Shown: in pieces, positions 6,505 through 22,789 of the stretch
Numbering within the stretch: the stretch's first letter is position 1
Layout: the number at the start of each line of letters is the position of its first letter
NCBI GenBank assembly: GCA_000002445.1
Contig: CP000068.1
Coordinates: 672,001-736,000 of the forward strand
Direction of reading: 5' to 3'
DNA length: 64,000 nucleotides
DNA from: Trypanosoma brucei
Taxonomy: Eukaryota
Notes under the pieces: generated by a model
What the model saw: only the letters and a program-made list of their open reading frames with translations
What the model was told of the DNA's origin: nothing
Databases searched by the model: none
Made by a program: the position numbers and the translations under genes

Positions 6505-8100
6505 CTACCTGGCCGCGAGGCGGTACTCGTCCTCGAGTTGCCTCAGGAGAGTTGGGAAACTCTCCTTCTCGTAGTCGTCAGGACAACCTCCGCTCACCCA
6601 CCGAATAACACCCTCGTGGTCTACAAGTATCACATGGGGCGAAAGGTAATTGCGTAGGCCCACCGATTTGTAAAACGGTACAAGCAACTTACTTCCAACA
6701 AACGTGGACGACGAGGTTATGAATCCATTGAGAAGGGACCTATCGTCAGAGCTTTCAGCACCTGTCGCCGTGGGAAACAAGGATCCTGCAAACCGCCGCA
6801 CATAAAGTTTGTGCACCCATCGATACTTGTAGACATCCATGCTCCGAAGTGAAAGCACACTAATTGGCATGTTACGGTCAACGGGGCATGCTAAGGTTTC
6901 ATTTCGGCAACGTCTCAACCCCCTTCCATGTTGGGCCTCTTCTGAGTTTACATGTCCCTCACCTTTTGCATTTTCTTTCGGAAGATAAGAGAGAAGTTTG
7001 GGGTTCAACACCGAATATGCAAGACGCCGCCACTCCAAATCGGCCTGTGCGCCTAGTTTCTGACCCAATTGTGAATAAATAACTACAGCAGGTCGCCGAA
7101 ACATCACCCTAGAGATCTCAGTAAGTTGTTGAGTGTCCGTTTCATCAAAAGAACGATTCAAATATAGCTTGCCAAGTGATTCCTCTGTAAGTTCAGCAGT
7201 GTTGTTGAAAAACGTCTTTTGCTTCATCAAGATACACAGCCTCTTCTCTGCCTCTTCATTGAGGGAACAGTATTGACTTACCCTTGCCGCTTTTAGGGTT
7301 GGAAAGAAGGGTACTGTATCGAACCCCAAAGATTCACACACAGTGCGGACCTTCTTTTGGCTAAGGGCAGCAGGGCCCCTCATAAGTTTACTGTTCTGGA
7401 TTATCTTCAACTCATTAAGGGCATGTTCGTTAAAGTAACGTAGCATCCGCTCCAGCTCATTGTCAACCGCGTATTCAATACCATACCTAAAATACTTGAG
7501 GACGAGGAAAACATCCCTTGACAGTATCGGTTTGTCTAGATCCATACCAACATCGCGGAAAACAAGCATCTTCTTTCTTTCACCTAGAACTTTTTGCTCC
7601 GCAGCACGGTTGTGGCGTCGTGCTACTTGTGACGTGGCTGACGGTCGACTTAAGCCAGCCGTTTCCAGATCCGTGAGCTTGCGCAGAAATTTATTTCCCA
7701 TGTGGTTTCTATCCAAACTATAGCTAACACGGGAGGTAGCCTTTGCAGTACCATTAACACCAAACGCCGTGGAACTCTCCTTCCTCGACATAACCCTCTT
7801 GTCCGCGCCTTGGTGGTGGCTGTACTGGACCCTCGCATCGTAGCTTTCCCTGGTAGCAGCATCCTTGTCTCCGCGTTGGATCCCCAAAGTTGCAGAAGCG
7901 TTTGCAGTATCATCACCTGCAGTAATTCTTATGTCCCTCGTGCCACTGGTTGTGTTAGAACGTGAGCGTGTACTGCACAATCGTTTCGGTGTCACAAAAC
8001 ATTGAATTACACACCGACCGAGATCTGACCGCCTGCAACACAAATCCGCCTGGATGTGTACGTTTGCATTCATCAGCGCACGCCTCTCCAGCATGTTCAC
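6505..8100 (-). CDS. Conserved hypothetical protein. The N-terminal ~200 aa are low-complexity, so the true start may be an internal Met. The C-terminus (VILVDHEGVIRWVSGGCPDDYEKESF) weakly resembles the thioredoxin-like ATP10 assembly-factor family.
   Basis: 531-aa ORF in the same transcription direction as UPF1 and DBR1, with codon usage like its neighbours. No firm motif. Confidence 0.45.
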   Translation of the reverse strand: MNMLERRALMNANVHIQADLCCRRSDLGRCVIQCFVTPKRLCSTRSRSNTTSGTRDIRITAGDDTANASATLGIQRGDKDAATRESYDARVQYSHHQGADKRVMSRKESSTAFGVNGTAKATSRVSYSLDRNHMGNKFLRKLTDLETAGLSRPSATSQVARRHNRAAEQKVLGERKKMLVFRDVGMDLDKPILSRDVFLVLKYFRYGIEYAVDNELERMLRYFNEHALNELKIIQNSKLMRGPAALSQKKVRTVCESLGFDTVPFFPTLKAARVSQYCSLNEEAEKRLCILMKQKTFFNNTAELTEESLGKLYLNRSFDETDTQQLTEISRVMFRRPAVVIYSQLGQKLGAQADLEWRRLAYSVLNPKLLSYLPKENAKGEGHVNSEEAQHGRGLRRCRNETLACPVDRNMPISVLSLRSMDVYKYRWVHKLYVRRFAGSLFPTATGAESSDDRSLLNGFITSSSTFVGSKLLVPFYKSVGLRNYLSPHVILVDHEGVIRWVSGGCPDDYEKESFPTLLRQLEDEYRLAAR

Positions 8101-11100
8101 TTTCTCTATATGTGTTTGTTTGTGTGTTTGAGGATGACAAGTGGTAGTGTTTTCAATGCGTGACCATGTTAACGAATTACAGTTAAAGTGCTATCAACGA
8201 GGGCACTTCCAGCGATGTAACACGCACATCTTCTACGATAGATTGCTAAAAGGATTTTATTTTTAAGGGCACGACAATGATCATATAAAACGAGAAACAG
8301 CATGCTCTTTCAGATGATACTGACAGAATAAGTGGAGAGGAGTACCAAAAAAGTCACAGAAAGAGCGCTGACCAGCAAAGGATGACGAAAAAAATCAATA
8401 CAAACGACTAAGTACCGGAGAGATTCACAAATACACACGCAAAACGCGCTTTGTATCACTTATACGCTTTCATGCGTGCTTTGCTCGTGAGGTCCAGAAA
8501 TAAAGCAAAAATTATACGCGGTGACATCACTCAATAGGAAACAATCTGAAACGGCTGCTAATAGTGTTCACGACAGCGATAGCGAAGCAATGGCGTAACA
8601 ACCTTCACAAAGAGCGGTTGGGATCATTTAAAAATGCGCACAGACACACCAAATCATGGTGGTGAGGACCAGTGTAAAACCACCCACTCTGGTAATCACA
8701 CCAAGGAAATTTAGTTCCATGGGTAAAATACAATAACAGAACCATCACACCCCTCACGGTCACACTTCAAGGGGGTTACGTGGAGGAAACCATACTAGAA
8801 ACCGTGGTATGCGCAGAATGATGCTAATGAACAGTAGAACCAAAAAAAAAGTAGCACTCATGACCCGCCTCGAGGGTACACACCTTCTCGAAAACTCACG
8901 TGCCACGTTAGAATGACAGTGCAACTACCCACGGGGGCAGAACGGCAAACATAAATAAGTACAAGGAGTTCTATCGCAAAAAATTCCGAAATAACCCCTA
9001 ATGCACTATTTGACAAAAATAAACAATGATGCAGTAATTACAAAAAAAAACAGCAACACTCCCCATACACACTAGCTTAAGGAGCATTCGATTATAAACA
9101 CAGCGGTACAGTGGTCAAAAGGAACAAAAAGTGAAATACTACTTAGGGTCCGTTATAAGGAATAGTGGAAACGCACCGATATTTTAACCAATATACCAGA
9201 ACAAAAAACTTCAAAATAAAGAAAAAATACATCCAACAAACGCTTGGCACACCAAATGGAGAAATTGGAGATCGCAAGCAACCCTCTCATGCTTTTCTAA
9301 ATACGGCTAATCAATCAAAAAAGCAAACACCCCATAGTCCGTTTCTGGTCCCCTTACGTCTTGCAGAAGGAAATTATGAAGATCATCAAAATATTTACGA
9401 GGGTTGTCGGAAACCCCACGGTAATGACATCTTTAGGCACCAAAAACTCCTGGGAGCAGCACGCACTTGCCCCAAGAAATAACGAAAACGCAAAAAACAC
9501 AAAAGATTCTCAGACAACTACTCCCACAATTTTATAAGCCTTAAAACCTGCGATACGGAGAGGAAGGTCCTGGTCCACCCGCTCCCTGTCCCTTGAAAAA
9601 GCTGTTTACGTGACCACTTTCTTTGTACGCTCATATGCATAAGCTAACATTGCCCTTACTAACTCCATTAATCCACAGGCAATCGCCTCAGACCACACGG
9701 CCGCGAAAAGGAAAATGGTCGCAAGAACGGCAAAGCCAATAGGTACGCGGTGTATCTTGGGGGTTCAGCCACCGCGTAACCGCGGCTGATGCCCACATTC
9801 ACTACAGACGTGTGCCCAACCCTCCGAGCAATATGATAAGGAGACTACCTCTAACACGTCAGCCTGTTCGAACGGATCACCTTCAACTTCGCCAGCAACG
9901 AGACACAATGACCCTGGCGGAAAACAGCTGCCTTTTCATTTAAAGGGGTGCATCGGCCATAGCGCAGCACACCACCGCCTGTTCTCCCACTACTGCCCGC
10001 CTACTGAAGGACAGTCGCGTCCCGAGGCCACGCTCAGTCGACGATAATACCTCTGCGAAGAGAGCAAATCCACAGCCGGGCGGAGACCATCACACATCCC
10101 GTGCCCCCAGAGGGGCGGTCCTGCGACCAGCAACATCGAACCTGACCCCTGCACCGACCCCTGTTCCATTTCTCTCTGCCTTTCCACCCACACCCGTACC
10201 TCATGCGCGATACCTCGGTTTCCTAAAGGGGATCGCCCCGACCCCCAGGAACATCCGACTCCAAATGTGGCCCTAGGGCCCGGCACCTCCAGTTTTAGAG
10301 GAAGCGGATCATCGCAACGTTCAGAGGGCGAAAATAAAAAAAAAGTCACCAGCCTCGTCCCCCGGAAGATGTGGCCTTGAGCTCACGCTGAAAAAGACCC
10401 GCTACCTACGATAACTCAGCGCTTTCTTCGAACCCCACTAGCACACACCCGTTTCGCTCGGCAATCCTCACTGCTGATGTATCGAAAAGGAGTGCCTCCT
10501 CCAAAGAAAACACCACCACACCCTACTCTTTAAGACTTCGCCTTCCGGAGACATGATTTTTCCTGGATGGCGGACGCCGATTTGCCCACTGCATCGGCGC
10601 TATGGGGACGCGTGCTGGGGGCCCTAAGGCGGGTGAAAGTTCTGGGGAAACGGAAAGTTTGGCCTTCCGAAAAATGAAAGACGGCGGCGCCGGCACCCCG
10701 GGTTTGCCATAAGAAAACATCGAACCTTTATTTTTCTTTTAACCCCCGCATCATTGAGGGCGTTTCGCCGCACGACACCACCGGGGCGGCGCCGTGTCGG
10801 TGGTGAAATGTTAGTGGGGCGTTTAGCGCGTGCCAAGTGGGGTGAGGTTATCCAATTTGGAAAGGTGCATACCTGGTGGGGTGGGGTTGTCGATAGGCAG
10901 TCCTCGGAGGGTCTCGTTGTCCGCATCAGTCATGGCGTAGCATTGTGAGAATTTTTTTTTTTGAATTTTCTTCGTGCCTTCGTGAGAGTTTCCCCCCACT
11001 GGCGCGGCCATCAGCCACCACCGTAGAGCCCTGAGATGCTATCGGTCTGGCGACTGTGGCAGAGTCTCCCTTTTTTATTCATCCTAACACACCCTCTATA

Positions 11101-11222
11101 ATTTTTGTTGTATTTCCGCATTTGAACGGAATACAGCAGATGGGGCGAGAAGCCTCCCACCCCGGACTCTCCAAAAGATGTCAATTGGCAATCCTTTTTT
11201 TTTGATTTTTGTTATTCGTTTA

Positions 11223-12143
11223 TTATTCTCTCTCCCTCTTTCTGTTTCTGTTGCTTGTTGATTGCATACCTCCTCTGTCTCTGAGGGTGTCTGGACTATT
11301 CCTGCGTCCGGTGCTTTTCCTGCTAGCTCCACATTCGGCAATAAGGGGGAAAGTTGCAGAAGGGAGAGTGGGTTGTATGACTGTTACATTGAATGAGGAC
11401 TTCACCTGCGGCCGGCCCCGTTCAACCGCAATGAGAAACTGCGCCAGCCTTTTGGAGAAGCATATATCCTGCACACACTCACCTTCTACCGCAAACCTGA
11501 CACGTAACTCCTTCAAACCTAGACAGCTCATCGGGTGCAGCGACGTTTCTTCGCAGTCGCCGCGTTGGCTGGTAACAGCGCACTCTACCTTCATACCGTG
11601 CATCTTCTTTTGATGTAGGGTGAGGCCAGTTTTGCTAGCACACTGCCTTCCGCATGTCGTGCACACCAACATGGATGCGTTTGTATGTGAGGAATTAGTG
11701 GCACACAATTTTGTGCTTTTGCTGCATTTAAGCTCGACTCCCTCACCTTTGTGGAAAGCCTTACAGTGTCGGATGAAGGAGTCCCTGCAACTGAGCACTT
11801 TTTGGCACACACCACACCGCACCTCGCCTTTCCCCGGGACGTCAACATTTCCCTCACTGGCACGCTTACGAGGGAATTGCACCACCACCACGGTACCGTC
11901 TTCCGTCACTATGCTCTTATGTTTGAATTTCTGGTGTAGTGACAGGGAAGAGCGTGTACCGAAGCTCGCCTCGCACAGGTCACATTGAAACGGCAGCTTC
12001 CGTGTATCCTGAGGGGCTGGCGCTGCTGGGGCTCTACCATCTCCTTGTACTGAGTCCTCGTTCTCTCGCCCCCTTTTCACGCGGCAACTACCGCTGCCTA
12101 TGCCATGTATTGTTCTAAGGTGGTGTAATAGTCGGCCTGGCAC
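11223..12143 (-). CDS. Retroelement ORF fragment: C-terminal C2H2 zinc-finger nucleic-acid-binding domain (3 fingers)
   Basis: Three C-x2-C...H-x3/4-H fingers, ending 26 nt before the poly-A/T run. This matches the C-terminal C2H2 domain of the L1Tc/ingi polyprotein. Confidence 0.65.
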   Translation of the reverse strand: MPGRLLHHLRTIHGIGSGSCRVKRGRENEDSVQGDGRAPAAPAPQDTRKLPFQCDLCEASFGTRSSLSLHQKFKHKSIVTEDGTVVVVQFPRKRASEGNVDVPGKGEVRCGVCQKVLSCRDSFIRHCKAFHKGEGVELKCSKSTKLCATNSSHTNASMLVCTTCGRQCASKTGLTLHQKKMHGMKVECAVTSQRGDCEETSLHPMSCLGLKELRVRFAVEGECVQDICFSKRLAQFLIAVERGRPQVKSSFNVTVIQPTLPSATFPLIAECGASRKSTGRRNSPDTLRDRGGMQSTSNRNRKRERE

Positions 12144-13636
12144 ATTCTAATTTGGAGGCACAGAGGGTACAATGAAGCACCTGCGGTCTCATCAAAACTC
12201 GTGTGCTTCGATGGTAAAGGAACGATCGCCACCACTGGAGGGGGCTCCGGGGGGATGTCCACTGCAGGTGTTGCATCGCCGTATTTGATCCTCCGGATGG
12301 CATCAGCTCGCACAAAGCCATGTTTGTTTACCATATGCGTTACAGCACTCGAGCGGCATTGGTATGTGGCATCATATTCCGTACATTTGGTCGGTTCGGA
12401 GGTTCTCTGAAGAGTGCGTGTCGCAACAGATGGGGTTGTTTGTGTTTGTATTGTTGTTCCTATCACTGCATGTTGCGGATTGCACCATCGGCACTGTGGA
12501 GGCACACTCGGGTTGATCTTTCGCAACATCCATCCATAGTGTCTTGAAGACCCAACCCGAAAGCGTGCCAATACCGTTTCTTCTTCCCTCGTTAGTTCTT
12601 CCTTATGTTTTGTTGGAAAGTGATTGCCCGTGATACCAAACCTATGAGTGTTCTCATGGACTTCTTCCGACCTAAGCACTCGCTTCGCATAAGCAATGAT
12701 GTCGGGGATCCATGTGTCTCGCAACTGTGGTAAATCTGCGGCCTTTTTGGCCATGTCATCACAAACCTCATTCCGTTTCACGCCACAATGGCCAAACACA
12801 AATTGCAGTCGGATACGTATCTTCCTTCTCTGAACTTGAAGCAGAAGCCTCCATAGTCGTCTTAGAATTGGGTCCGTTACGGCTAGGGGGCCTGTCTGCA
12901 GTGCTGTTAACATTGACAGCGAGTCAGAGAAGATGGACAACCTGCTCGGTGTGCTTCTGTGTGCCGGAAGCCATTTCAGCAGCCGTTGCAGTCCTATCTC
13001 TAATGCTACGCATTCCGCTCTGTAACTGCATGAGAGTTCCCCTGCTCCGGTCTTGGGTGCGCAAATCAGCGTGTTGTTTCTATAGAGCAGGGCAGCTGCT
13101 CCGGACTTCTCACCGAGGGACACGGATCCATCAGTCCACAATTCGTAGTGCTCTCGCCGCGGTGGCTCCTTCCCCCTCCGTGCAAAATGCCGTGCAATCC
13201 ACTTTTCGGAAGCTTCCCTTTTGACATCGTCAGGGTCATCAGCGCACACAGGCCTAATCTGCGTGTGAAATATCGGTCGGCAGCTGTGGCGGAGCGTCGA
13301 TGTCTCTAGTTGGTGCTCGCGTGGCTCAATGCGGAGGTGGGGGTAGGACCGCATGATGCGGGAATGTAGGGCTCTGAGTGGATGTTTGCTGTGGTATACT
13401 TCCTCAGCACTGCGCCGCAAACATCCGCCTCGTGACTCACACATCAGCATGAACTTCATGCTGCGCACAAGAGTGGTCGTCTTGAGTGGGAGGAGGTTTG
13501 CTTCCAGCAGAGAGTCCTCTTCGCGCGTCCCATGCGGTATGCAAGCTATGATGCAACTACCCTTGTGTTGTGCTGCTGCAAGGAGGTCGCGACTTCGTTC
13601 CGAAGCGTCCCAGTACCATACCTCAATGCCATACAT
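12098..13636 (-). CDS. Retroelement ORF fragment: RNase H domain plus linker
   Basis: TDGSVSLGEKSGAAALLY...CSYRAECVALEIGLQ...HCGVKRNEVCDDMAKKAA is an RNase H-like catalytic pattern. Its end overlaps the next fragment in another frame. Confidence 0.7.
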   Translation of the reverse strand: MYGIEVWYWDASERSRDLLAAAQHKGSCIIACIPHGTREEDSLLEANLLPLKTTTLVRSMKFMLMCESRGGCLRRSAEEVYHSKHPLRALHSRIMRSYPHLRIEPREHQLETSTLRHSCRPIFHTQIRPVCADDPDDVKREASEKWIARHFARRGKEPPRREHYELWTDGSVSLGEKSGAAALLYRNNTLICAPKTGAGELSCSYRAECVALEIGLQRLLKWLPAHRSTPSRLSIFSDSLSMLTALQTGPLAVTDPILRRLWRLLLQVQRRKIRIRLQFVFGHCGVKRNEVCDDMAKKAADLPQLRDTWIPDIIAYAKRVLRSEEVHENTHRFGITGNHFPTKHKEELTREEETVLARFRVGSSRHYGWMLRKINPSVPPQCRWCNPQHAVIGTTIQTQTTPSVATRTLQRTSEPTKCTEYDATYQCRSSAVTHMVNKHGFVRADAIRRIKYGDATPAVDIPPEPPPVVAIVPLPSKHTSFDETAGASLYPLCLQIRMCQADYYTTLEQYMA

Positions 13637-13720
13637 GGTGTGTGCCTGTACGAGTGCTAGATAAAAAGCTCTCAGTACTTGTCGTCTTGGCCCCCATGTA
13701 TAAACTGAGATGGCTGTTAT

Positions 13721-15394
13721 CTACAGTAGTCGGAAGTCCATCTTGCGTCTCGTCTCGGCCGCATGTGTTGCCATCCCTTGCAGACACTGGAATGTTACTC
13801 CTAGAAGCTTCGGTGTCCTGTCAGCTCCTATTCTTTCGCCGTCCAGTCGTAATGTAAGGGGGTGGCGCTCTGTACACCCGAAGAGTGTGCACTTTGTTTT
13901 CGCTACATTGATAGACATGAAGTACTCTTTTGACCACTGTAACACCACGTTGAGGCCGCATTGTAGTGTGTGGTTGATGACATCCCTCTCTGTGTGCCTC
14001 GCAAGTAGCGTCAGGTCGTCTGCAAAGAATCCGTGCTGCAGTAACGGCACTTCTGCAAGGCGTTGGCTCAACGAGTTCATGACAATAATGAACATGATTG
14101 GGCCAAGGACAGTTCCTTGTGGCACTCCTCGCTCAAATGTTCTGCTTCTGGAAAGCCTTTCCCTGAGTCTCACTCTGCCAGTTCGGTTACTCAGAAATGA
14201 TACGCACCACTTCACAATGTGGGGTGATACCTTCATTTTGTGCATTTCCCTCGCAATTTTGTCGTGGTCTACTGTATCGAATGCCTTCTCGTAGTCGACG
14301 AATACAGCACCCGTACGATATTGGTGCGTGGGACGGCAGAGGGCAGCGCGGACGTGCAGCAGCTGTTCGAGCGTTGAGCATCCGGGGCGAAAGCCTGATT
14401 GCTGCGGCGTCAGCTGGGACTCAACAGTGTCTCTAAGTCTCGCGGCAATTATGCGCTCCATGACTTTGCAGAGACAGCTCGTGAGCGTCACAGGCCTGTA
14501 AGAATCGAGGTCCTCCGCCTTTTTTCCGGCCTTCAGGATGGGGATGATAACACCGGTCTTCCATGCAGGCGGCACGACTCCCGTTCGTAGGCTCTCACTG
14601 AATAGCCTCAGAACAACATTCAGCGCTGTTCTACCGAGATGTTGTATTGCCTCGTTGTATAAGCAATCAGGTCCGGCTGCGGATCCACTCGGTAGCAGTT
14701 TGATCGATCTCCGTAGTTCAGCCATCGTGATGGGACTGAACTCACTCGCTATCGTCTTTATGTGTGCTGGTGGGTGTGAGTTGGGGTGCCTTCTTGCGCG
14801 GGACGAGTACAGTTTAATGAACCTCTCAGCTTGACAGTAGTCCGTGATGGCCGCGTTATCAACAAGTACAGTCGGTGTGGTTAGTGGTCGTGGCGCATAT
14901 ACCTTCTTGACAATGTGCCAACTGCAGCGGTCTGACACCGCAAGTCTGGAGCATAGCGTGCTCCATCTCTTCTTTGTGGTACGGTCCAGAATCTGCTTAC
15001 GCGTGGCTACCAACTTTTCCCTTCGGTGGGAGGGTCCGCATCCAGCAATCTCTTCATCGAGTTTCGCGAGCGCAGGTATCCAATGTGGTGGCGTTGCTCT
15101 GCAGCCACGGGGGACGGATGCCTTCGTCGCAATGCGGATGGCGGAGCTCAATATCTGTTCCAGGGTGTTGACTTTCTTCTCTCTACCAATTTTCCTGCAG
15201 ACCTCGTCAACCTTGAGACGGAAATTCCTCCAGTCAGCTTTTAGCCATGCGTACATGGGCTTTTGAAGCCGCGGGCAACTCAGTGCATCTGTGTCGTCTC
15301 CAACGATAACGTCGAAAAATATGTGATGGTGATCGCTATCGGGAGAATACAGCGATGTCCACGTGTACACTGTGCAATTCCTTGACAGTGTCAC
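13721..15394 (-). CDS. Retroelement ORF fragment: reverse transcriptase (LINE RT, palm motifs 1-7)
   Basis: AVFVDYEKAFDTVDH, GVPQGTVLGPIMFIIVMNSL and FADDLTLLARH (YXDD-equivalent). Confidence 0.85.
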   Translation of the reverse strand: MTLSRNCTVYTWTSLYSPDSDHHHIFFDVIVGDDTDALSCPRLQKPMYAWLKADWRNFRLKVDEVCRKIGREKKVNTLEQILSSAIRIATKASVPRGCRATPPHWIPALAKLDEEIAGCGPSHRREKLVATRKQILDRTTKKRWSTLCSRLAVSDRCSWHIVKKVYAPRPLTTPTVLVDNAAITDYCQAERFIKLYSSRARRHPNSHPPAHIKTIASEFSPITMAELRRSIKLLPSGSAAGPDCLYNEAIQHLGRTALNVVLRLFSESLRTGVVPPAWKTGVIIPILKAGKKAEDLDSYRPVTLTSCLCKVMERIIAARLRDTVESQLTPQQSGFRPGCSTLEQLLHVRAALCRPTHQYRTGAVFVDYEKAFDTVDHDKIAREMHKMKVSPHIVKWCVSFLSNRTGRVRLRERLSRSRTFERGVPQGTVLGPIMFIIVMNSLSQRLAEVPLLQHGFFADDLTLLARHTERDVINHTLQCGLNVVLQWSKEYFMSINVAKTKCTLFGCTERHPLTLRLDGERIGADRTPKLLGVTFQCLQGMATHAAETRRKMDFRLL

Positions 15395-15460
15395 ATCAGG
15401 GGTGGACTCCCCGTGGTGGCGCGCGTACCTGGTGCACTCACCAGTGTTGCAGACCAGAAC

Positions 15461-16066
15461 CTAGTTGTCAATGCACCACTGTGTGAGGGTTTCATCCTTG
15501 GTATTTGATGGGCTCGCGCGATCCCATGCCAACGCGTGTGCGTTAGCGTCTGCACCGATGAGCTGGGCACTGTCAGTCGTCAGAAGCGTATCTAGGTCAG
15601 TTGCCGTGAAGGTGCGTTTTGGTGGGATGTATGCTGACGTGACGGTCAGCGCCGTTCCACGTGCAAGGTGAATTGTTGCATGCACTTGTTCAATGCGACC
15701 AACAACGGCCATACCGGTCTCGACTAGTAGGTCCTCCTTTACTAGTATTGGTACACCACCTTCTTTGCAGTTACGAGCTATTCCGTGATGTTGATAGCCA
15801 GCAACGCTAAAGCAAGCCGCCTCTCCAGGCGTCATCCTTGTCTCGCTCAACAGACAAAAGGCGATCCGCTCATCAACAAGGGTTTTGTGGAGTGCTAATC
15901 TCTTTCCTTGAGATAGCCCCGGCGCAGTTCCACTGCATCCCGCGCAACGACGGGCCGGGATTCTCTTCCACATCACCGGACAGCAGCATCTTACTGCGGA
16001 TGATACTGCTGATGGCACGCTGGCACGTGCCCAGGGGCCGACAAATGAAAAACGGTGTCCCAGCAA
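15461..16066 (-). CDS. Retroelement ORF fragment: apurinic/apyrimidinic endonuclease (EEP) domain
   Basis: LLSETRMTPGEA, GYQHHGIARNCKEGGVPILV and IGADANAHALAWD are APE-type motifs of LINE ORFs. Confidence 0.65.
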   Translation of the reverse strand: MLGHRFSFVGPWARASVPSAVSSAVRCCCPVMWKRIPARRCAGCSGTAPGLSQGKRLALHKTLVDERIAFCLLSETRMTPGEAACFSVAGYQHHGIARNCKEGGVPILVKEDLLVETGMAVVGRIEQVHATIHLARGTALTVTSAYIPPKRTFTATDLDTLLTTDSAQLIGADANAHALAWDRASPSNTKDETLTQWCIDN

Positions 16067-16235
16067 GACGCTGCTGATCCCTGTGCTGTATGATGCCGTA
16101 GCCGGAGCAAAGCAGTGTTCCCCATGAAAGGAACGCCGCTGGCTCTTGGCTTCCCCCGATGATACGGGGTACTGGACCCTGGCACCACGTGGAGGTGGCC
16201 GGCATCGCCAGGGGCATTGTGAGAATTAATCCCAC
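15873..16235 (-). CDS. Retroelement ORF fragment: N-terminal leader with 2A-like self-processing motif DVEENPGP
   Basis: Translation ...ISSIIRSKMLLSGDVEENPGPSLRG. A D-x-E-x-NPGP 2A-like motif is what I recall from the N-terminus of trypanosomatid L1Tc/ingi elements. Confidence 0.6.
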   Translation of the reverse strand: MGLILTMPLAMPATSTWCQGPVPRIIGGSQEPAAFLSWGTLLCSGYGIIQHRDQQRLAGTPFFICRPLGTCQRAISSIIRSKMLLSGDVEENPGPSLRGMQWNCAGAISRKEISTPQNPC

Positions 16236-16620
16236 GCCACCACCCCTTGCTTGGAATGCGTCTCTTCAGGGTCCCTCGGCACGTTTTTTTTTTGTGGCGC
16301 CCCATTCCGTCGCGTTACTCAGTAAGTGGTGATATAACTGTAGTCACTTCAGATGCTTCCATGTAGCTGCGCGTTTTTCTTCGGTACTTTTTGGTTGGCA
16401 CGCTTATCTTCTGCCTGTTTCACTGCACTGCGAGAATCTGCGTGCTTTGTTGTAATTTTTGTACGCCACCCTCTGTCAATGCGATTGTTCCTAAAGTGTG
16501 GAGAGGCTTCGTTGCACGTGTGTCGTGCGAACGCTCAGTGCAACCACGCGCCTGAAAAGTCTTTCATGCTTCTAGACTTTGGTGATCCTATGCAGGGGGT
16601 TTGCTCCAGTTCTGCTTCCG

Positions 16621-16641
16621 TATTATTATTATTATTATTAT
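16621..16641. repeat. (TTA)7 microsatellite
   Basis: tattattattattattattat. Confidence 0.9.
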
Positions 16642-17460
16642 GATCATTTGTTATGCCCTCTCTTTTGAATGTCGTTTCTTCATCATCTTGTCCTCGTTTC
16701 CTCGTTGCTCACAGTGTCTGCGGGCAGTTTCTGTCGACTCAAACGGCTACGTTGGAACTGACGTGCGTTCCGCACGCATTTAAGGTTCATGTAAGTCATT
16801 GGCACTTGTGCCATAGTCTCCTTCTCGTCGGTGAGGAAATTGAATGCTGTGCCCGTCTAGTGTGGCAGCCGTAGGGGGGCCCTGTTGTGACGTCGTATGT
16901 TGTTTACAACTGCTCTTTATGAGCCGCAACTGGAGTTCTTGAACCTCCGAGGGCTTGTGCGCTGTGGTGGCGACATAAAGAGGAGACCAAATTTCGCTCG
17001 GGGTTCAGTGTAGTTACCGTGTTCCAATGTAGCATCTCTGCTTGCGAATGGGGGAAAAGAACATGCGCCTCGTTTTCTCTCTCGCTCCGCACTAAAGCAT
17101 GAGGTGCTCTGACACCGGTGCCGTGCTATCCCTCTGTGCTTCTGCTTCCCTGAGCTATGCCCAGCTGCCTTTCCGTCTCGAGTTTTGGCACTGAAGCAGA
17201 CTTTCGCAAACCCTACAGCGTGCATGGCTTCCGCGCACCCATGCATAGCTATGCATTTTCTAGGGCTAGCGTTTCACTGTTCCTAGCTTGTCACCCCAAC
17301 TCCTTTTCCAGGGTCTAAACTAGGACGCGGGCGCGTGTTTGTTTTGATTTATGTGAGTGTTCGGGAGTGTCTGACGGAGGTTGCGTTGACGCGACGTGAC
17401 ATACTCCAAGTCAATGCTTTCAGGTTTTGATTCCCATTATTATCTAACCATGGAACCCGG

Positions 17461-17480
17461 GGAGGGAGGGGGGGGGGGCG
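17461..17480. promoter_or_regulatory. G10 homopolymer tract inside an ORF-poor divergent strand-switch region (16312..18550). Candidate Pol II start-region element.
   Basis: ggagggagggggggggggcg. The flanking minus-strand block (DBR1, UPF1, hypothetical, retroelement) and plus-strand block (array onward) diverge here. G-runs are reported at trypanosome divergent strand-switch regions. Confidence 0.3.
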
Positions 17481-18856
17481 TTTTGTCCCGCAACGATCGT
17501 GGAGCGGTAAAAAGCAAGGCGCTGCCATGGCGCCGCTGCGGGAGTGCGCCGTTGCGCGCTGTCTGGCACGCTCGTGGTGAATAGCGCGCGCTCATGAGCG
17601 CGTGAGGCCTTCTATTGTTCCGGCACCCCGCTACGCTGATACCAGCTGAATTCAGGGTTAGGAGCACCCATCAGCATGTCAAATGCTGCGGCGAGGTGGT
17701 GGGGAAAGTCTCTCCAGTTGGGGCTCCATCAGTTACAAGCTACCCGCTTACAGCGGCTGACTCCGTATAGAAAATTATCACTGCGTTTCCGCGCCGCGTT
17801 GGAAGCGTTGCCAACAGACATGGAGACGTCAAGTCTCTCCCAGATTCAGACAAAAAATCGAAAAAAAGAACAGCCAGGCTAAAAAAAAAAAAATTGGCAC
17901 ATTAATAGATAGGAGATAGGAGATAAATGCTGTCAACAATACACTCCATGTTAAACATTTCCTTCTCCACCCAGAAGAGGTGGGTAAAATACCAACGTTG
18001 CCCCTAACGACCCTATATGGGGGTGGCACCAACCGTGCAGTTGAAACCAATATCAACTTGATGGGAAGAGCCTTCCCTGAAATCGATATCTTAAAGAGTA
18101 AAAGGCTGTCGAGGCCGTACACGAGACTTACCAACGCAGCTAGTGTTGTCTCGTTTTATTCCGTGTCTCCCATCAATGCGAGATGTTCACATATGACATT
18201 CGATGCCACACTATTGACCGGTGGACGGTGCGAGATTGCATCACCACAGCCCTTCCCTCAATAAGTACACCAAGTCCAATACAAACAAGATAATGAAGCA
18301 CACCTTGCCTTTCCACATCACGGCCGATAGCGTTTGGTACCCAGTTTTCTTTCGATATAGCGAATTAAAGAAAGTAGCACCATCGTTGACCAGCACAAAA
18401 CGATCAGGAAGTTACAAAGACAGAATCAACTAAACAGCCCAAAAACGACAAAGTTCCTTATTTTCACATACAGCACAACCCAAAGAAAAGCACCCCTACT
18501 ACGTTTCCAGGAGCAGCAGAGGTTTGTTGCCGCCTACCGCTGTCAAAAGCATTCCATGTTATAATTTGTTTGCCGCGCTTGGTCTCGTGATGCTGAGTGA
18601 TTGTGCCTGTGTTTGTGGTTTCACCCCCTCTTGTCACGCCTTCCGCGGTTGGTGTGATTCCATTTGTGTTTGTTTCATGTGTTTTGTTTCCCTCACTACA
18701 TTGTGTGGTGAGGTTTGCTACTCTTATGATGAGTGCGCCTTGTGCCGCGTGCGTGTGTAGTGCTCATTTACCACTTGCTGCTTTCCCTTAACCTATTTCT
18801 GGATGAAAGAGACTTTACTCTTGTTTTTACCCACGTTCAAGCCGACACGGATAACA

Positions 18857-19207
18857 ATGGCCACCTGCCCTAAACACCTGTTCGGGAAGTACCATCTAAA
18901 GAGTTTTAATGGCAAAAGCGCCTTGGAGGGCGAACTGGCCGGTGTGACACTGGAGCTTGGTGAAGAAGACGGTCGTGTCACAGTACGCGCGAAGGCGGGA
19001 AATGCGATGAGTGGTGTGTTGAAGTATGAAGGTGGGATGCTCACCGGTCCCTTGATGTCTACAATGATGATGCCTCCCCCTGCTGTCTTGAAAGTAGAAC
19101 GAACCCTCGTGTCCGGTTTTTCCAGCGGTATGCATGCGCTCCGTGAAGGCTCTTCTCTTACGCTTTCGCATAAGACAGACACGATGGTGTTTGAGGCCGT
19201 GGAGTAA
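18857..19207 (+). CDS. Array gene C, copy 0 (diverged edge copy): 117-aa soluble protein with FABP/calycin-like N-terminal motif
   Basis: MATCPKHLFGKYHLKSFNGKSALEGELAGVTLELGEEDGRVTVRAKAGNAMSGVLKYEGGMLTG... A polypyrimidine tract and AG lie immediately upstream of this ATG. The listed 134-aa ORF starts 54 nt further upstream, inside the acceptor region. Confidence 0.6.
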   Translation: MATCPKHLFGKYHLKSFNGKSALEGELAGVTLELGEEDGRVTVRAKAGNAMSGVLKYEGGMLTGPLMSTMMMPPPAVLKVERTLVSGFSSGMHALREGSSLTLSHKTDTMVFEAVE

Positions 19208-20333
19208 ACTTGTTTCTCGACATGCAGTTACCCTTTTATTTTCTACTTGTGTTGCCACTACACTTTCGTGTTTGTGGTCGGTGTTAGCGAACACTACCTT
19301 TGTTTACCACTTAGTGTTATGTTATTTATTTTTGAAATCGGGTTATTATTTTTATTTTTTTTTTCCAGGGTGTAGATATTTGAACCCTAATAAACGTCAA
19401 CGTTTTGTTAATTTATACGGGGGTACGTGTTTTTTTATTTGTTATCGAGGTATAGGCCTTCTGTCATGGTGACTACTGGACATTTTCGCTTCCTCTTTGC
19501 TGGATGCTCCCTGAATACTCAACGTAATAGTATGAAGAAAAGTGAGATGGTAGGCGGGGAATAAGTGTATGTAAGGAGTATATATTGTACGGACATCGGT
19601 AGTGGTGATGATGTTGAGATTCTCTCTCTTAAAGGTTATATCTTTGTATCAACTGATTCGGTACATAAGATCAGATTTTAAATACTATCTTCTATTTATT
19701 ATTTATTATGGAGTGTGATAATTAAAATGTAAGGGCAAATTATCTAACTGCTTATGATCAGTTGATTAGGTAGCGAGTAGTTTAGATAGTATCTTATATT
19801 TAGGAGGTGAGGTGTCCATCTGTAGTAATGGAAGAAATTGTTTGTAAGGATCGACGGCAGTGCAGATAAAACAAATATCGAAGTATATATATATGTATAG
19901 AAGTTTGGCTCAGCGACAGAGATACAATATTCTGCAAAAATAAGATATAAATATTTCATCATTACCCTACCATGCACAGATTATCGATGTGTATCCAACA
20001 AGGTGGGCGCGTGCGACTCCTTCAAGCATTCCATGTTATAATTTGTTTGCCGCGCTTGGTCTCGTGATGCTGAGCGATTGTGCCTGTGTTTGTGGTTTCA
20101 CCCCCTCTTGTCACGCCTTCCGCGGTTGGTGTGATTCCATTTGTGTTTGTTTCATGTGTTTTGTTTCCCTCACTACATTGTGTGGTGAGGTTTGCTACTC
20201 TTATGATGAGTGCGCCTTGTGCCGCGTGCGTGTGTAGTGCTCATTTACCACTTGCTGCTTTCCCTTAACCTATTTCTGGATGAAAGAGACTTTACTCTTG
20301 TTTTTACCCACGTTCAAGCCGACACGGATAACA

Positions 20334-20684
20334 ATGGCCACCTGCCCTAAACACCTGTTCGGGAAGTACCATCTAAAGAGTTTTAATGGCAAAAGCGCCT
20401 TGGAGGGCGAACTGGCCGGTGTGACACTGGAGCTTGGTGAAGAAGACGGTCGTGTCACAGTACGCGCGAAGGCGGGAAATGCGATGAATGGTGTGTTGAA
20501 GTATGAAGGTGGGATGCTCACCGGTCCCTTGATATCCACTATTATGCTCTCGCCCCCTGCTTTGATGGAGGTGGAGAGTGCTTTCAGTTCTGGATTTTCC
20601 AGCGGTATGCATGCGCTCCGTGAAGGCTCTTCTCTTACGCTTTCGCATAAGACAGACACGATGGTGTTTGAGGCCGTGGAGTAA
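20334..20684 (+). CDS. Array gene C, copy 1: 117-aa FABP/calycin-like protein
   Basis: Same as 18857..19207 except for the variable patch GPLISTIMLSPPALMEVESAFSSG. Confidence 0.6.
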   Translation: MATCPKHLFGKYHLKSFNGKSALEGELAGVTLELGEEDGRVTVRAKAGNAMNGVLKYEGGMLTGPLISTIMLSPPALMEVESAFSSGFSSGMHALREGSSLTLSHKTDTMVFEAVE

Positions 20685-20984
20685 AGGTGACGGGCATACG
20701 TTAGTGTGTGTTTTGTTTATACGGTGATGTAAAAAATGACTTAAATTTTCATCTGTTTTTCGGTTATATTGTAGGTGCATATTCAACTTTCTCAATACCT
20801 AATGGCGGTACTATTAGTATTATTTTTTTTAAATACTTTCCTTGTTCACGAATATGTGATATCTACTGATTCGTATGAGCACTTTTGTTTTTTTATGCGT
20901 CTTCCTGTCTTCGCTAGCGTTTTGTTGTTGATGTATTTCTTGATTTGCTTTTCGTTTCTTTCTTTATGCTCTATACCTTTTTTT

Positions 20985-21042
20985 GCCTTTCCCTTGTATC
21001 CGCATATTCTCGTCCTCTGGTCTCTACTCCGCCATATTTATT
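20985..21042 (+). promoter_or_regulatory. Polypyrimidine tract / probable trans-splice acceptor region upstream of array gene A (recurs every 4182 bp)
   Basis: cctttttttgcctttcccttgtatccgcatattctcgtcctctggtctctactccgcc, then AG dinucleotides before the ATG at 21111. Confidence 0.4.
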
Positions 21043-21110
21043 CATGTAGTGCATGTAGTACTGGTTTGCATCCCGTGGAAACCTCTGCTTTTGTGTAGCA
21101 CCCGCGATTT

Positions 21111-22541
21111 ATGGCATCAGACAATGAGTCCACTGTCGAGGTGAGGGAGGCTCGTGACACCGAGGAGTACGATGCGCAGGCTGCTGCTCGTGGGCTGTGT
21201 GACAAGGCATGTGACATAAAGAGCCTTCTACATGGGCACGTTGAGTCGACGCGTGCCCTCGAAAGGGTTGTTGGGGAATTTTGCACTCGCGACATCGCTG
21301 AAGAGGATGCCTTCCGGAAAATCTCTCTCGACGTTATGCATGCCGAAATGCGGGCGCTACGGGACCTTCACTACGTTGCATTTTCCCAGCGGTGGGCAGA
21401 GGTAGAAAAGGGCTCCGCTGCAGAGGAGGTCACCAGCCTACCTTCAGCGGATAGGAGTGTTGGAAGTTGCGTGTCCCACCTTCTGACCTCGCTTTGTGAG
21501 GGAAAGCCTGATGCAACTTTTAGCCTTTCAGAGTATTTTGGTGTCGCTGACGTGCTTATGGAATGGCGCTCGTTAACTCCAGCATCACAGGAACAGTTGG
21601 ATATTCTTCTTCTGTCAATAACCAGGAGCGTGGAGGACATTTCATCATGTGTCCTGCTGCTGAATGGGGTTTTATATACACCATCTGATTCATTTGATTG
21701 TTGTGAACTCACTCGACGGGAGCTCACCGCGATAATTGGAAGTGGGGGACCCGCTTCCGCGGAAGAGGCACTTGTTGGATGGCTTAATTTTATTGTGAGA
21801 CGCTCGTTACTCAACCAGACCCTTCTCCAGAGGCTGATGAGTTCGACCATCGAGTTTCGGAGAAGTGATCTTTGCCTACAGGGCGACGGCGCAGACGTGC
21901 TGGTTGTAGTCGACCACAGGCGGTTGTTGAACTCCGCTGTCTTTCGTGGGTTTTTCTTTTCTGGGGAGTTGCGTGGTGTAGAGGCTATTGGGGCGCAGGT
22001 GAACTTGATGTCAGTATTATTTGCAGGCAACGGCAGCGGAGATCAGCTTGACATAGAGAAGTGTATCGCCGACATTTTCCGCGCTTTATGGGAGCAGCAG
22101 GAACTGCTTTCATGTAAGTGGAAGAACGTTACTGTGACCCTCGCTGTTCAAGCCAGGAAGGACGTCGGAGCCGGCGCTCAAACCAAGTTGATGGACTTCG
22201 TTGTGCTCGATCTTCGCCCCCTGTCGCCGAACATTCCTTTTCAGTGGCACTTTACATGGGGCGAGGTCTGTGCACTAGGCCAGCTCAGTACGAATGACGG
22301 AGATAGAGCACGACCCCTGGACATTCCTGTTTTCAAGACGACTCGTGTAGCTGTAGCCTCTCTGGGGCCTTATGATAAACTTTCACGCATAATGTTCCCT
22401 TCGATTAACGAGTATTTACGTCTTACGCGGAAAGAGCCACCATCTGTAGCCCCAGTCGCCTACGCTGCCGTCGCGGCGGCGCTTGTCGTCGGGGGATTTA
22501 TTGTTGGAAGCTGCATACTCGGTTCCCGGCGAAGACGATGA
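21111..22541 (+). CDS. Array gene A, copy 1: 476-aa tail-anchored membrane protein, no recognisable domain
   Basis: No N-terminal signal peptide (MASDNESTVEVREARD...). A single C-terminal hydrophobic helix (VAPVAYAAVAAALVVGGFIVGSCILG) is followed only by SRRRR-stop. A strong polypyrimidine tract lies upstream (20985..21042). Confidence 0.75.
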   Translation: MASDNESTVEVREARDTEEYDAQAAARGLCDKACDIKSLLHGHVESTRALERVVGEFCTRDIAEEDAFRKISLDVMHAEMRALRDLHYVAFSQRWAEVEKGSAAEEVTSLPSADRSVGSCVSHLLTSLCEGKPDATFSLSEYFGVADVLMEWRSLTPASQEQLDILLLSITRSVEDISSCVLLLNGVLYTPSDSFDCCELTRRELTAIIGSGGPASAEEALVGWLNFIVRRSLLNQTLLQRLMSSTIEFRRSDLCLQGDGADVLVVVDHRRLLNSAVFRGFFFSGELRGVEAIGAQVNLMSVLFAGNGSGDQLDIEKCIADIFRALWEQQELLSCKWKNVTVTLAVQARKDVGAGAQTKLMDFVVLDLRPLSPNIPFQWHFTWGEVCALGQLSTNDGDRARPLDIPVFKTTRVAVASLGPYDKLSRIMFPSINEYLRLTRKEPPSVAPVAYAAVAAALVVGGFIVGSCILGSRRRR

Positions 22542-22789
22542 GCAGTATCCGCCTCTGCTTTTTTCTGTTCATCTTGTTTTATTGACTTTAGAGCCATATT
22601 TAGGCTCCGCTATGCGTCCTTGTTGGTTAGAGGTTTAGTATTGTTGTACCTGACTCTGTGACTGATGGTGGGTGCCGCACCGTATCTGCGGCATGGGGTG
22701 CTTGCGTGAGTGAGGATCCACACTTATTTGACCGCTGTTTGCTATGAAATGTTTCCCTCCTTTCCTACTTGTAGCCAAGTTAATATTGC

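What the first reader, a model, noticed from the sequence alone, without database searches (positions are those of the whole stretch)
11197..16312. Degenerate ingi/L1Tc-type LINE with 2A-like N-terminal peptide sitting at the boundary of the divergent transcription units
All canonical domains are present in order (2A, APE, RT with FADD box, RNase H, 3x C2H2) but in at least four different frames. The copy is therefore inactive, although recently enough inserted to be fully recognisable. Its poly-A end faces the minus-strand gene block. It lies between the two divergent polycistrons, the region where Pol II initiates in trypanosomes. The conserved ~77-nt 5' leader of these elements has reported promoter activity.
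Basis: partly seen in the sequence, partly recalled or inferred. Interest (0 to 1): 0.5.

Follow-up and report, generated by a model that had tools for sequence, protein, structure and literature searches.

The report
Known, dead ingi retrotransposon copy
This is a full-length but mutationally dead copy of ingi, the common LINE-type retrotransposon of Trypanosoma brucei, lying between two divergent gene clusters on chromosome 5; a published catalogue already lists it, and it is ordinary.

Summary
The element is real, but its coordinates and several details need correcting. It is a complete T. brucei ingi on the minus strand at window 10952-16213 (5,262 bp), flanked by a perfect 12-nt target-site duplication, TTCTCACAATGC. 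Its 5' end (16312) overshoots by 99 nt.

A published catalogue of T. b. brucei TREU927 lists the same element as "Complete INGI", chr5 682952-688213, minus strand.

The copy is 95.0-96.7% identical in DNA to other T. brucei ingi copies. Removing three 1-nt insertions and reading through two CAG>TAG stops gives a 1,659-aa product. This product is colinear with an intact 1,656-aa ingi ORF at 93.4% identity: leader-2A, APE, RT (FADD), RNase H, four C2H2 fingers. That is five lesions in three frames, not "four frames".

T. b. gambiense and T. b. equiperdum carry the same insertion with the same duplication and one shared frameshift, so it predates their split.

It does sit in a divergent strand-switch region. 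The promoter idea is weak: promoter activity was shown for L1Tc, assays on T. brucei ingi/RIME were negative, and the core promoter motif is destroyed in the orthologous copies.

Verdict: already known, low interest.

The parts
16214..16225 (-). 5' copy of the 12-nt target-site duplication, TTCTCACAATGC
   Evidence: Only two exact copies occur in the 64-kb window, against 0.02 expected by chance. The same pair flanks the orthologous ingi in T. b. gambiense and T. b. equiperdum.
10952..16213 (-). Complete ingi non-LTR retrotransposon (5,262 bp); a pseudogene
   Evidence: Its DNA is 95.0-96.7% identical end to end to five paralogous T. brucei ingi copies. A published catalogue lists it as 'Complete INGI', NC_007278:682952-688213, minus strand, with an identical 100-nt upstream sequence.
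16137..16213 (-). Pr77 / '79-bp signature' 5' leader, starting CCCTGGCGATGCC
   Evidence: It has 2 differences from the consensus of the copies over 77 nt. The CCACC box (+16 to +20, window 16194-16198) and the CGTG downstream promoter element (+25 to +28, window 16186-16189) are both intact (motif defined in PMC4748587). No Rfam family matched.
15951..16205 (-). ORF start (ATG at 16203-16205), 77-aa leader, and the 2A-like motif DVEENPGP (15951-15974)
   Evidence: Shown by translation. The N-terminus MPATSTWCQGPVPRIIGGSQEP is identical to that of the intact ingi ORF P0129. The ingi 2A is reported to be active in ribosome skipping (PMC3708506).
15917..15920 (-). Frameshift 1: G4 run where all other copies have G3 (+1 nt, codon 95), just after 2A
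   Evidence: Alignments A1 and the 8-copy alignment. Specific to the window copy.
15320..15944 (-). AP-endonuclease domain region, interrupted by the in-frame stop CAG>TAG at 15461-15463 (codon 248)
   Evidence: Pfam Exo_endo_phos_2 matches aa 187-295 of the repaired translation, E 3.5e-11. The stop is specific to the window copy.
13790..14518 (-). Reverse-transcriptase domain with the FADD box at 14015-14026
   Evidence: Pfam RVT_1, E 1.5e-45, aa 563-805. FADD is at aa 727-730.
13721..13723 (-). In-frame stop CAG>TAG (codon 828) between RT and RNase H
   Evidence: All seven other copies have CAG here.
12737..13150 (-). RNase H domain
   Evidence: Pfam RNase_H, E 4.3e-9, aa 1019-1156.
12144..12208 (-). 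Frameshifts 2 and 3: +A at about 12208 (codon 1329) and +T at 12144 (codon 1350)
   Evidence: The +A is shared with the T. b. gambiense and T. b. equiperdum orthologues and is absent from all five paralogues. The +T is specific to the window copy.
11598..12171 (-). Four C2H2 zinc fingers (aa 1345-1535 of the repaired product). A fifth, upstream finger is mutated C>Y.
   Evidence: Regex search on the repaired translation. Weak Pfam zf-C2H2 hits.
11223..11225 (-). Stop codon of the ingi ORF
   Evidence: The C-terminus ...NRNRKRERE is identical to that of the intact ORF P0129.
10952..11222 (-). 3' untranslated tail ending in an A11 run (10952-10962).
   Evidence: Homology to all paralogues continues to the A-run at 10952-10962.
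10940..10951 (-). 3' copy of the 12-nt target-site duplication

Best explanation
**What it is.** Window 10952-16213 (minus strand) is one full-length copy of ingi, the autonomous LINE of Trypanosoma brucei. The window matches T. b. brucei TREU927 chromosome 5, where the element occupies 682952-688213.

**How it arrived (inferred from the anatomy and established non-LTR biology).** It inserted once by target-primed reverse transcription into the middle of a roughly 5.4-kb divergent strand-switch region. The signs are a 12-nt target-site duplication, an intact 5' end and an A-tail. The insertion predates the separation of the T. b. brucei, T. b. gambiense and T. b. equiperdum lineages.

**What has happened since (shown).**
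- It has decayed by ordinary point mutation, mostly transitions with many C>T and G>A changes.
- It is now 2.7% from the family consensus.
- It carries five ORF-breaking lesions: three +1 insertions and two CAG>TAG stops. It cannot make its own APE/RT/RNase H protein.
- One frameshift is shared by all three orthologues, so the copy was dead at or soon after insertion.

**What it does today (inferred).**
- It is a passive passenger. It points the same way as the left-hand (minus) gene cluster, so it is probably read by Pol II from the strand-switch region.
- Like ingi in general, it probably feeds the Dicer/AGO1 siRNA pathway.
- It shows no sign of selection. It diverges 3-4 times faster than its flanks.
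- The core motif of its 5' leader is lost in the orthologous copies.
For: **Identity**
- The best protein hit is a T. b. equiperdum 'reverse transcriptase' at 95% identity.
- End-to-end DNA identity to five paralogous ingi copies is 95.0-96.7%.
- The repaired 1,659-aa translation is colinear with an intact 1,656-aa ingi ORF at 93.4% identity, with only 3 gap positions.
- Pfam finds APE, RT and RNase H in order.
- The length of 5,262 bp fits the published 5.25 kb, and the roughly 1,657-codon ORF fits the published ORF (PMC3447711; PMC2323293).

**Boundaries and mechanism**
- The perfect 12-nt target-site duplication has two copies in the window against 0.02 expected. 12 bp is the published ingi duplication size.
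- Paralogue homology starts and ends exactly at these points.

**Already catalogued**
- The catalogue entry is 'Complete INGI', NC_007278:682952-688213, minus strand, with a 100-nt upstream sequence identical to window 16214-16313.

**Age**
- The orthologous insertion with the same duplication is present in T. b. gambiense chr5 and T. b. equiperdum chr5.
- Ten derived variants, including the +A frameshift, are shared only by the three orthologues.

**Decay**
- 95 of 121 window-only changes are private to this copy, and 80 of 109 are transitions.

**No constraint**
- The element differs from its T. b. gambiense orthologue at 4.40% of sites, against 1.47% in 4.7 kb of flanks (Fisher p = 2e-18).
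- The genome-wide non-coding identity between T. b. brucei and T. b. gambiense is 95.4% (PMC2854126).

**Context**
- ingi/RHS elements are the largest siRNA source in T. brucei (PMC3447711).
Against: - Nothing contradicts the identification.
- The statements about present-day transcription and siRNA production at this particular copy are inferred from family-level literature. No expression, small-RNA or chromatin data could be examined here.
- The +1 G in a G-run at 15917-15920 could in principle be a homopolymer sequencing error. The other four lesions would still kill the ORF.
- The consensus used for dating rests on only eight copies.
Confidence: 0.93

Rival explanations
1. The element has been co-opted. 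Its Pr77 leader acts as an internal Pol II promoter that starts, or boosts, transcription of the minus-strand polycistron (the 529-aa gene, UPF1 and beyond) from inside the strand-switch region.
For: - The window copy keeps a near-consensus Pr77: 2 differences in 77 nt, with CCACC and the CGTG downstream promoter element at +25 to +28 intact.
- The element points towards the minus-strand genes and lies 2.86 kb upstream of the first one.
- Pr77 of L1Tc is a strong Pol II promoter in T. cruzi, and retroelements are reported to accumulate in strand-switch regions (PMC1874656, PMC4748587).
Against: - Reporter assays with the first 55, 250 and 500 bp of T. brucei ingi/RIME gave no expression (Garcia-Salcedo 2003, as summarised in PMC1874656).
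- In the orthologous copies of T. b. gambiense and T. b. equiperdum the leader has 4 changes, including CGTG>TGTT. The motif reported as essential in L1Tc is therefore not conserved at this locus.
- The whole element evolves 3-4 times faster than its flanks.
- Transcripts started at +1 would have to cross 5.3 kb of ingi, a major siRNA target, before reaching a gene.
Confidence: 0.05
2. The copy cannot code for its own proteins but is still mobile. With intact 5' and 3' ends, it is retrotransposed in trans by protein from intact ingi copies, as RIME is.
For: - Both termini are complete and close to consensus.
- Intact ingi ORFs exist in the species: a 1,656-aa ORF in T. b. equiperdum.
- RIME, which shares the ingi ends, is considered to be mobilised in trans (PMC2323293).
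Against: - No daughter copy carrying this copy's private variants was seen among the seven other copies examined. 95 window-only variants are private to it.
- Only a handful of the genome's copies were sampled, so this is weak evidence either way.
Confidence: 0.07
3. The window copy is not the orthologue of the T. b. gambiense and T. b. equiperdum copies by descent. It was overwritten by gene conversion from another ingi, or inserted independently at the same site. This would explain why it is no closer to them (95.4-95.6%) than to paralogues (95.0-96.7%).
For: - The pairwise distance matrix is star-like.
- 26 of 121 window-only variants also occur in some paralogue.
- The T. b. gambiense genome paper notes that ingi/RIME recombine (PMC2854126).
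Against: - Ten derived variants, spread from 16110 to 11847 and including a frameshifting +A, are shared only by the three orthologous copies and by none of five paralogues.
- The target-site duplications are identical.
- Most window-only variants are private and transition-biased, as expected for point mutation.
- The 4.4% divergence equals the genome-wide non-coding divergence between the subspecies.
Confidence: 0.03
4. It is an L1Tc (T. cruzi type) element or a DIRE (degenerate ingi-related element), rather than ingi proper.
For: The domain architecture, the 2A motif and the 5' signature are common to the whole clade.
Against: - Flanking genes and the element itself match T. brucei assemblies at 95-99%.
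- The length is 5,262 bp, not 4.9 kb.
- It has only five lesions and 93.4% amino-acid identity to an intact ingi ORF. That is far from the heavy degeneration that defines DIREs.
- 'Tbingi' proteins of other trypanosomes (T. theileri, T. grayi) are only 59% identical.
Confidence: 0.01

Closest known systems
Tbingi (ingi / TRS-1), the autonomous non-LTR retrotransposon of Trypanosoma brucei
   Same: - Length of 5,262 bp against the published 5.25 kb.
- 79-nt 5' signature and A-rich 3' end.
- 12-nt target-site duplication.
- A single ORF plan of about 1,657 codons: leader-2A, APE, RT, RNase H, C2H2 fingers.
- 95.0-96.7% DNA identity to other copies.
- This very copy is listed as 'Complete INGI' on TREU927 chr5.
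   Different: The ORF is broken by three frameshifts and two stop codons. This copy is one of the family's many non-coding members, not one of the few potentially active ones.
L1Tc of Trypanosoma cruzi
   Same: - Same clade and the same domain order.
- N-terminal 2A.
- Conserved first 77 nt (Pr77), including the CGTG element at +25 to +28.
- 12-bp target-site duplications.
   Different: - Different host, and 4.9 kb long.
- Outside the first 77-79 nt the two families are reported to be poorly conserved at the nucleotide level.
- Promoter and HDV-like ribozyme activities were demonstrated for L1Tc. They were not demonstrated for T. brucei ingi, where promoter assays were negative.
RIME (0.5-kb non-autonomous partner of ingi)
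   Same: It shares the two ends of ingi. The catalogue labels the first 294 nt of this element as a 'RIME A' match.
   Different: RIME lacks the central 4.7 kb. This element has all of it.
DIRE (degenerate ingi/L1Tc-related elements)
   Same: Both are non-functional, ingi-related and carry the 5' signature.
   Different: DIREs are ancient and heavily degenerate. This copy is 2.7% from consensus and can be restored to a full ORF by five edits.

Membership tests
Tbingi (T. brucei ingi) | Conserved 77-79-nt signature at the extreme 5' end | tested here: met
   Window 16213-16137 reads CCCTGGCGATGCCGGCCACC.... It has 2 differences in 77 nt from the consensus of the other copies, and paralogue homology begins exactly at nt 1.
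Tbingi (T. brucei ingi) | Total length about 5.25 kb with an A-rich 3' end | tested here: met
   The element is 5,262 bp and ends in A11 at 10952-10962. The published size is 5.25 kb.
Tbingi (T. brucei ingi) | 12-bp target-site duplication | tested here: met
   TTCTCACAATGC occurs at 16214-16225 and 10940-10951. These are the only two copies in the window, with 0.02 expected by chance.
Tbingi (T. brucei ingi) | High nucleotide identity to other T. brucei ingi copies over the full length | tested here: met
   95.0-96.7% identity over 5.26 kb to four full-length paralogues, and 93.0% to a 5'-truncated one.
Tbingi (T. brucei ingi) | Single long ORF of about 1,657 aa encoding APE, RT, RNase H and C2H2 fingers | tested here: inconclusive
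   Colinear homology is met: the 1,659-aa repaired product is 93.4% identical to an intact 1,656-aa ORF, and the Pfam domains are in order. Intactness is not met: three frameshifts and two stops. It is therefore a member of the family, but a pseudogene.
Tbingi (T. brucei ingi) | 2A-like D(V/I)ExNPGP peptide about 40-80 aa from the N-terminus, just upstream of APE | tested here: met
   DVEENPGP is at aa 78-85 (window 15951-15974). The position matches the published description. Skipping activity of this exact variant was not tested.
Tbingi (T. brucei ingi) | Conserved sequence pattern upstream of the insertion site (endonuclease recognition) | not tested
   The published consensus for ingi target sites was not available in the papers I could read. 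Only a general statement of site preference was found.
L1Tc (T. cruzi) | Length about 4.9 kb, resident in T. cruzi | tested here: not met
   The element is 5,262 bp. The flanks and the element match T. brucei assemblies at 95-99%.
L1Tc (T. cruzi) | Nucleotide similarity to the L1Tc consensus beyond the first 77 nt | not tested
   No L1Tc sequence was available to the tools. The literature reports low nucleotide conservation between L1Tc and ingi outside Pr77.
DIRE | Heavy degeneration with numerous stops and frameshifts throughout, and no recoverable ORF | tested here: not met
   Only five lesions, and 2.7% divergence from consensus.
Pr77 internal promoter (as defined for L1Tc) | Downstream promoter element CGTG at +25 to +28, with the upstream CCACC box | tested here: met
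   CCACC is at +16 to +20 and CGTG at +25 to +28 in the window copy. In the T. b. gambiense and T. b. equiperdum orthologues, CGTG has become TGTT (definition).
Pr77 internal promoter (as defined for L1Tc) | Drives Pol II transcription from +1 | not testable with these tools
   This needs reporter or TSS data. Published assays on T. brucei ingi/RIME 5' ends were negative.
HDV-like ribozyme (L1TcRz type) | Nested double-pseudoknot fold of the first 77 nt, with cleavage at +1 | tested here: inconclusive
   No Rfam family matched at E<=1 across 8000-21500. The nested MFE fold of nt 1-79 is not unusual (z = -1.42). The published pseudoknotted fold was not scored.

The most novel reading that the evidence does not exclude
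In strain TREU927 specifically, this copy keeps an intact Pr77 core that its T. b. gambiense and T. b. equiperdum orthologues have lost. It might therefore fire Pol II from its +1 or nucleate siRNA- or H3.V-linked chromatin. That would shift where the minus-strand polycistron starts, or how strongly it is expressed. It would be a strain-specific regulatory polymorphism created by differential decay of one retroelement in a strand-switch region.
Probability: 0.04. Interest if true: 0.45.

Novelty: already known. Interest (0 to 1): 0.08.

Why it matters
It matters little beyond correct annotation. The element belongs to one of the best-described repeat families of T. brucei, and this exact copy is already in a published genome-wide list.

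The modest value is as a clean worked example:
- The insertion can be dated. It has a perfect target-site duplication, is shared by three subspecies, and has one ancestral and several lineage-specific lesions.
- It gives a local yardstick of neutral decay (about 4.4% between T. b. brucei and T. b. gambiense). Against that yardstick, the surrounding strand-switch DNA (about 1.5%) looks constrained.
- It also cautions against carrying the L1Tc promoter story over to ingi copies in T. brucei strand-switch regions.

Tried and rejected
1. From the ORF sizes I first assumed the tandem array to the right was tubulin on chromosome 1. Pfam showed META/DUF1935 genes, and UPF1 on the left. The locus is on chromosome 5.
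2. I first took CCCTGAAGAGACGC... (16272) for the element's 5' end, from a faulty memory of Pr77. Alignment to paralogues and the target-site duplication moved the end to 16213.
3. An Rfam scan at E<=1 across 8000-21500 found nothing, so there is no support from curated HDV-ribozyme models.
4. The MFE fold of the first 79 nt is not distinguishable from shuffled sequence (z = -1.42).
5. Self-BLASTN and TBLASTN of the ingi pieces against the whole window found no second ingi, RIME or DIRE remnant.
6. An exact look-up of the 512-aa ORF fragment found no record. The T. equiperdum OVI contigs were either not colinear with the window or were a collapsed repeat.
7. Gene conversion or an independent insertion was considered as the reason the orthologous copies are as distant as paralogues. 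Shared derived variants and the private, transition-biased changes rejected it.
8. Element-specific hypermutation was considered as the reason for the 3-4 fold excess divergence over the flanks. It is not needed, because the element's divergence equals the published genome-wide non-coding value, so conserved flanks are the simpler reading. It was not formally excluded.
9. No tRNA genes are present. The bacterial-type promoter/terminator scan is irrelevant to this organism and was empty.

Full report
**What is in the sequence**

The finding points to window 11197-16312. ORF listing shows a chain of minus-strand ORFs:
- 15873-16235, containing LLSGDVEENPGPS
- 15461-16066
- 13721-15394
- 12098-13636
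- 11223-12143

Pfam assigns these to Exo_endo_phos_2, RVT_1 (E 5.6e-46), RNase_H and weak C2H2 hits, in that order. The observation of a minus-strand LINE with 2A-APE-RT-RNase H-zinc fingers is therefore real.

- The APE, RT and RNase H pieces share one frame and are separated by in-frame TAG codons.
- The 2A leader and the C-terminal finger region lie in another frame.
- A short 68-aa piece lies in the third frame.

**Which family, and which organism**

The RT piece finds a 'reverse transcriptase [Trypanosoma brucei equiperdum]' at 95% identity. 'Tbingi' proteins of T. theileri and T. grayi are only 59% identical.

BLASTN against the genomic copy behind that hit gives 94.9% identity over window 16232-10954. 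Four further paralogous copies give 93.0-96.7%.

Flanking genes are found verbatim in T. b. gambiense DAL972 chr5 and T. b. equiperdum chr5.

A published genome-wide table for T. b. brucei TREU927 lists a 'Complete INGI' at NC_007278:682952-688213, minus strand, 5,262 bp. Its 100-nt upstream sequence occurs once in the window, at 16214-16313 (minus), with no mismatch, and does not occur exactly in the other subspecies' loci. The window is therefore TREU927 chr5 from about 672,001. The element is ingi, not L1Tc, and is already catalogued.

**True boundaries**

Homology to paralogues begins exactly at CCCTGGCGATGCC (16213) and runs to an A11 tract at 10952-10962.

Immediately outside both ends lies TTCTCACAATGC, at 16214-16225 and 10940-10951. 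These are the only two copies in 64 kb, with 0.02 expected by chance. Twelve base pairs is the published target-site duplication size for ingi/RIME, and 5.25 kb the published length (PMC2323293; PMC3447711). The element is 5,262 bp.

**State of the coding capacity**

An intact 1,656-aa ingi ORF from T. b. equiperdum (P0129) served as reference. An eight-copy alignment gives the lesions of the window copy:
- +G in a G-run at 15917-15920 (codon 95, ten codons after 2A)
- CAG>TAG at 15461-15463 (codon 248, inside APE)
- CAG>TAG at 13721-13723 (codon 828)
- +A at about 12208 (codon 1329)
- +T at 12144 (codon 1350)
- a harmless in-frame ACAAAC insertion at 12444-12449

Deleting the three single bases and reading through the two stops yields 1,659 aa. 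This product is colinear with P0129 from Met1 (MPATSTWCQG...) to the last residue (...NRNRKRERE), at 93.4% identity with three gap positions.

| Feature | Position in repaired product |
|---|---|
| 2A motif | aa 78-85 |
| APE (Pfam) | aa 187-295 |
| RT (Pfam) | aa 563-805 |
| FADD box | aa 727-730 |
| RNase H (Pfam) | aa 1019-1156 |
| Four C2H2 fingers | aa 1345-1535 |

A fifth finger present in intact copies is mutated C>Y. The copy is dead but only lightly damaged.

**Age and mode of decay**

The T. b. gambiense and T. b. equiperdum chr5 loci carry an ingi at the same place with the same target-site duplication.

The three orthologous copies are no closer to each other than to paralogues: window to T. 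b. gambiense 95.6%, to T. b. equiperdum 95.4%, to paralogues 95.0-96.7%. This raised the possibility of gene conversion. Three observations argue against it:
- Ten derived variants, spread from 16110 to 11847 and including the +A frameshift, are shared only by the three orthologues and are absent from all five paralogues.
- 95 of 121 window-only changes are private to this copy.
- 80 of 109 window-specific substitutions are transitions, with C>T (26) and G>A (27) dominant.

This fits one insertion shortly before the subspecies split, followed by independent point-mutational decay. Each orthologue has its own set of stops and frameshifts, and only the +A is common to all. The window copy is 2.70% from the small-sample consensus.

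**Element versus flanks**

| Comparison | Element | 4.7 kb of flanking strand-switch DNA | Fisher p |
|---|---|---|---|
| Window vs T. b. gambiense | 4.40% | 1.47% | 2e-18 |
| Window vs T. b. equiperdum | 4.58% | 1.43% | 1e-20 |
| T. b. gambiense vs T. b. equiperdum | 1.39% | 0.34% | 1e-8 |

(All.)

The T. b. gambiense genome paper gives 95.4% as the mean non-coding identity to T. b. brucei. The element therefore looks neutral and the flanks look more conserved than average. I did not exclude a raised mutation rate in the element.

**Genomic setting**

- To the left, on the minus strand, are UPF1 (2982-5516) and a 529-aa gene (6505-8094).
- To the right, on the plus strand, the first coding sequences are two small META-domain ORFs at 18803-19207 and 20280-20684.
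- These are followed by three 4,182-bp repeats, each with a 476-aa gene and a 446-aa META/DUF1935 gene. Then come LRR, acyltransferase, Brr2-like helicase, formin, PCIF1-like and NAA35-like genes.

The element thus sits almost centrally in a divergent strand-switch region that was about 5.4 kb before insertion. Its 3' end is 2.86 kb from the first minus-strand gene. Its 5' end is about 2.6 kb from the first plus-strand gene. A G11 run on the plus strand lies at 17468-17478. There are no tRNA genes and no other ingi, RIME or DIRE remnants in the window.

**How it most likely works now**

Shown:
- The copy cannot encode its proteins.
- It is not under detectable constraint.

Inferred from the literature:
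- ingi elements are transcribed on both strands and are the largest source of AGO1-bound siRNAs in T. brucei (PMC3447711).
- Their transcripts are kept low by RNAi, and H3.V is enriched on them (PMC4721609).
- This copy is co-oriented with the left-hand cluster in a region where Pol II initiates. It is most simply a transcribed passenger.

**The promoter idea**

The window copy keeps the Pr77 features reported as essential in L1Tc: CCACC at +16 to +20 and CGTG at +25 to +28 (PMC4748587). Three points weaken the idea:
- Promoter activity was demonstrated for L1Tc in T. cruzi, whereas the first 55, 250 or 500 bp of T. brucei ingi/RIME gave no reporter expression (as summarised in PMC1874656).
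- The orthologous copies in two other subspecies have four changes in the 77 nt, including CGTG>TGTT.
- The element as a whole decays faster than its surroundings.

I give co-option about 5%.

The HDV-like ribozyme reported for this clade (PMC4035085) could not be confirmed or refuted here. There was no Rfam hit, and the nested fold was uninformative.

**Comparison with known families, and verdict**

All defining features of Tbingi that I could test are met, except ORF intactness. The L1Tc and DIRE assignments fail on length, host, identity and degree of degeneration. The 2A peptide of ingi, and its activity, are long published (PMC3708506). Accumulation of such elements in strand-switch regions has been noted repeatedly. 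The exact copy is in a public table.

The finding is a correct recognition of an ordinary, already-known element. Its ends and lesion count were imprecise, and its functional hint does not hold up. Interest is low.

Noticed in passing
window 8095-10939 and 16226-18095, compared with 10952-16213: The orthologous ingi copies diverge 3.0-4.1 times faster than 4.7 kb of adjacent non-coding strand-switch DNA. For T. b. brucei vs T. b. gambiense the figures are 4.40% vs 1.47% (p = 2e-18). The same pattern holds for the other two pairs. The element matches the published genome-wide non-coding divergence, so the strand-switch flanks look unusually conserved.
   Followed up: partly
window 16186-16189; L004 and L005, element positions 20-28: The Pr77 core motif CGTG (+25 to +28) is intact in the TREU927 copy. 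It is TGTT in the orthologous copies of T. b. gambiense and T. b. equiperdum, which carry 4 changes in the 77-nt leader.
   Followed up: yes
window 18803-19207 and 20280-20684 (+): Two small ORFs (134 aa from the first ATG) carry a META domain (Pfam E 1.3e-14 for the first). They lie in a duplicated unit of about 1,477 bp. They are the first plus-strand coding sequences, so the strand-switch region is narrower than the large-ORF map suggests.
   Followed up: partly
window 21111-32494 (+): Three head-to-tail repeats of 4,182 bp each hold a 476-aa gene with no Pfam match and a 446-aa META + DUF1935 gene. The T. equiperdum OVI draft assembly collapses this array into a single 4,195-bp contig (L003).
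   Followed up: no
window 17468-17478 (+): A run of 11 G lies on the plus strand, 1.25 kb from the ingi 5' end and about 1.3 kb upstream of the first plus-strand ORF. From memory, G-runs have been described at T. brucei divergent start regions, but I did not verify this in the papers read. The run length varies among the three subspecies.
   Followed up: no
window 16620-16640: An (ATA)n microsatellite in the 5' flank is one unit longer in the window than in T. b. gambiense and T. b. equiperdum.
   Followed up: no
L006 1493-6744 (T. b. equiperdum CM010672.1): This ingi copy has an uninterrupted 1,656-aa ORF and a consensus Pr77. It is a candidate retrotransposition-competent element, and it served here as the reference for calling lesions.
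   Followed up: partly
L002 4513-9767 (T. b. equiperdum CM010675.1): This full-length paralogous ingi lies next to a VSG gene. Its flanking 12-mers (TTTTCCAGTGCA / TTTTACTGTGTC) match at only about 8 of 12 positions, which suggests an older or decayed target-site duplication.
   Followed up: no
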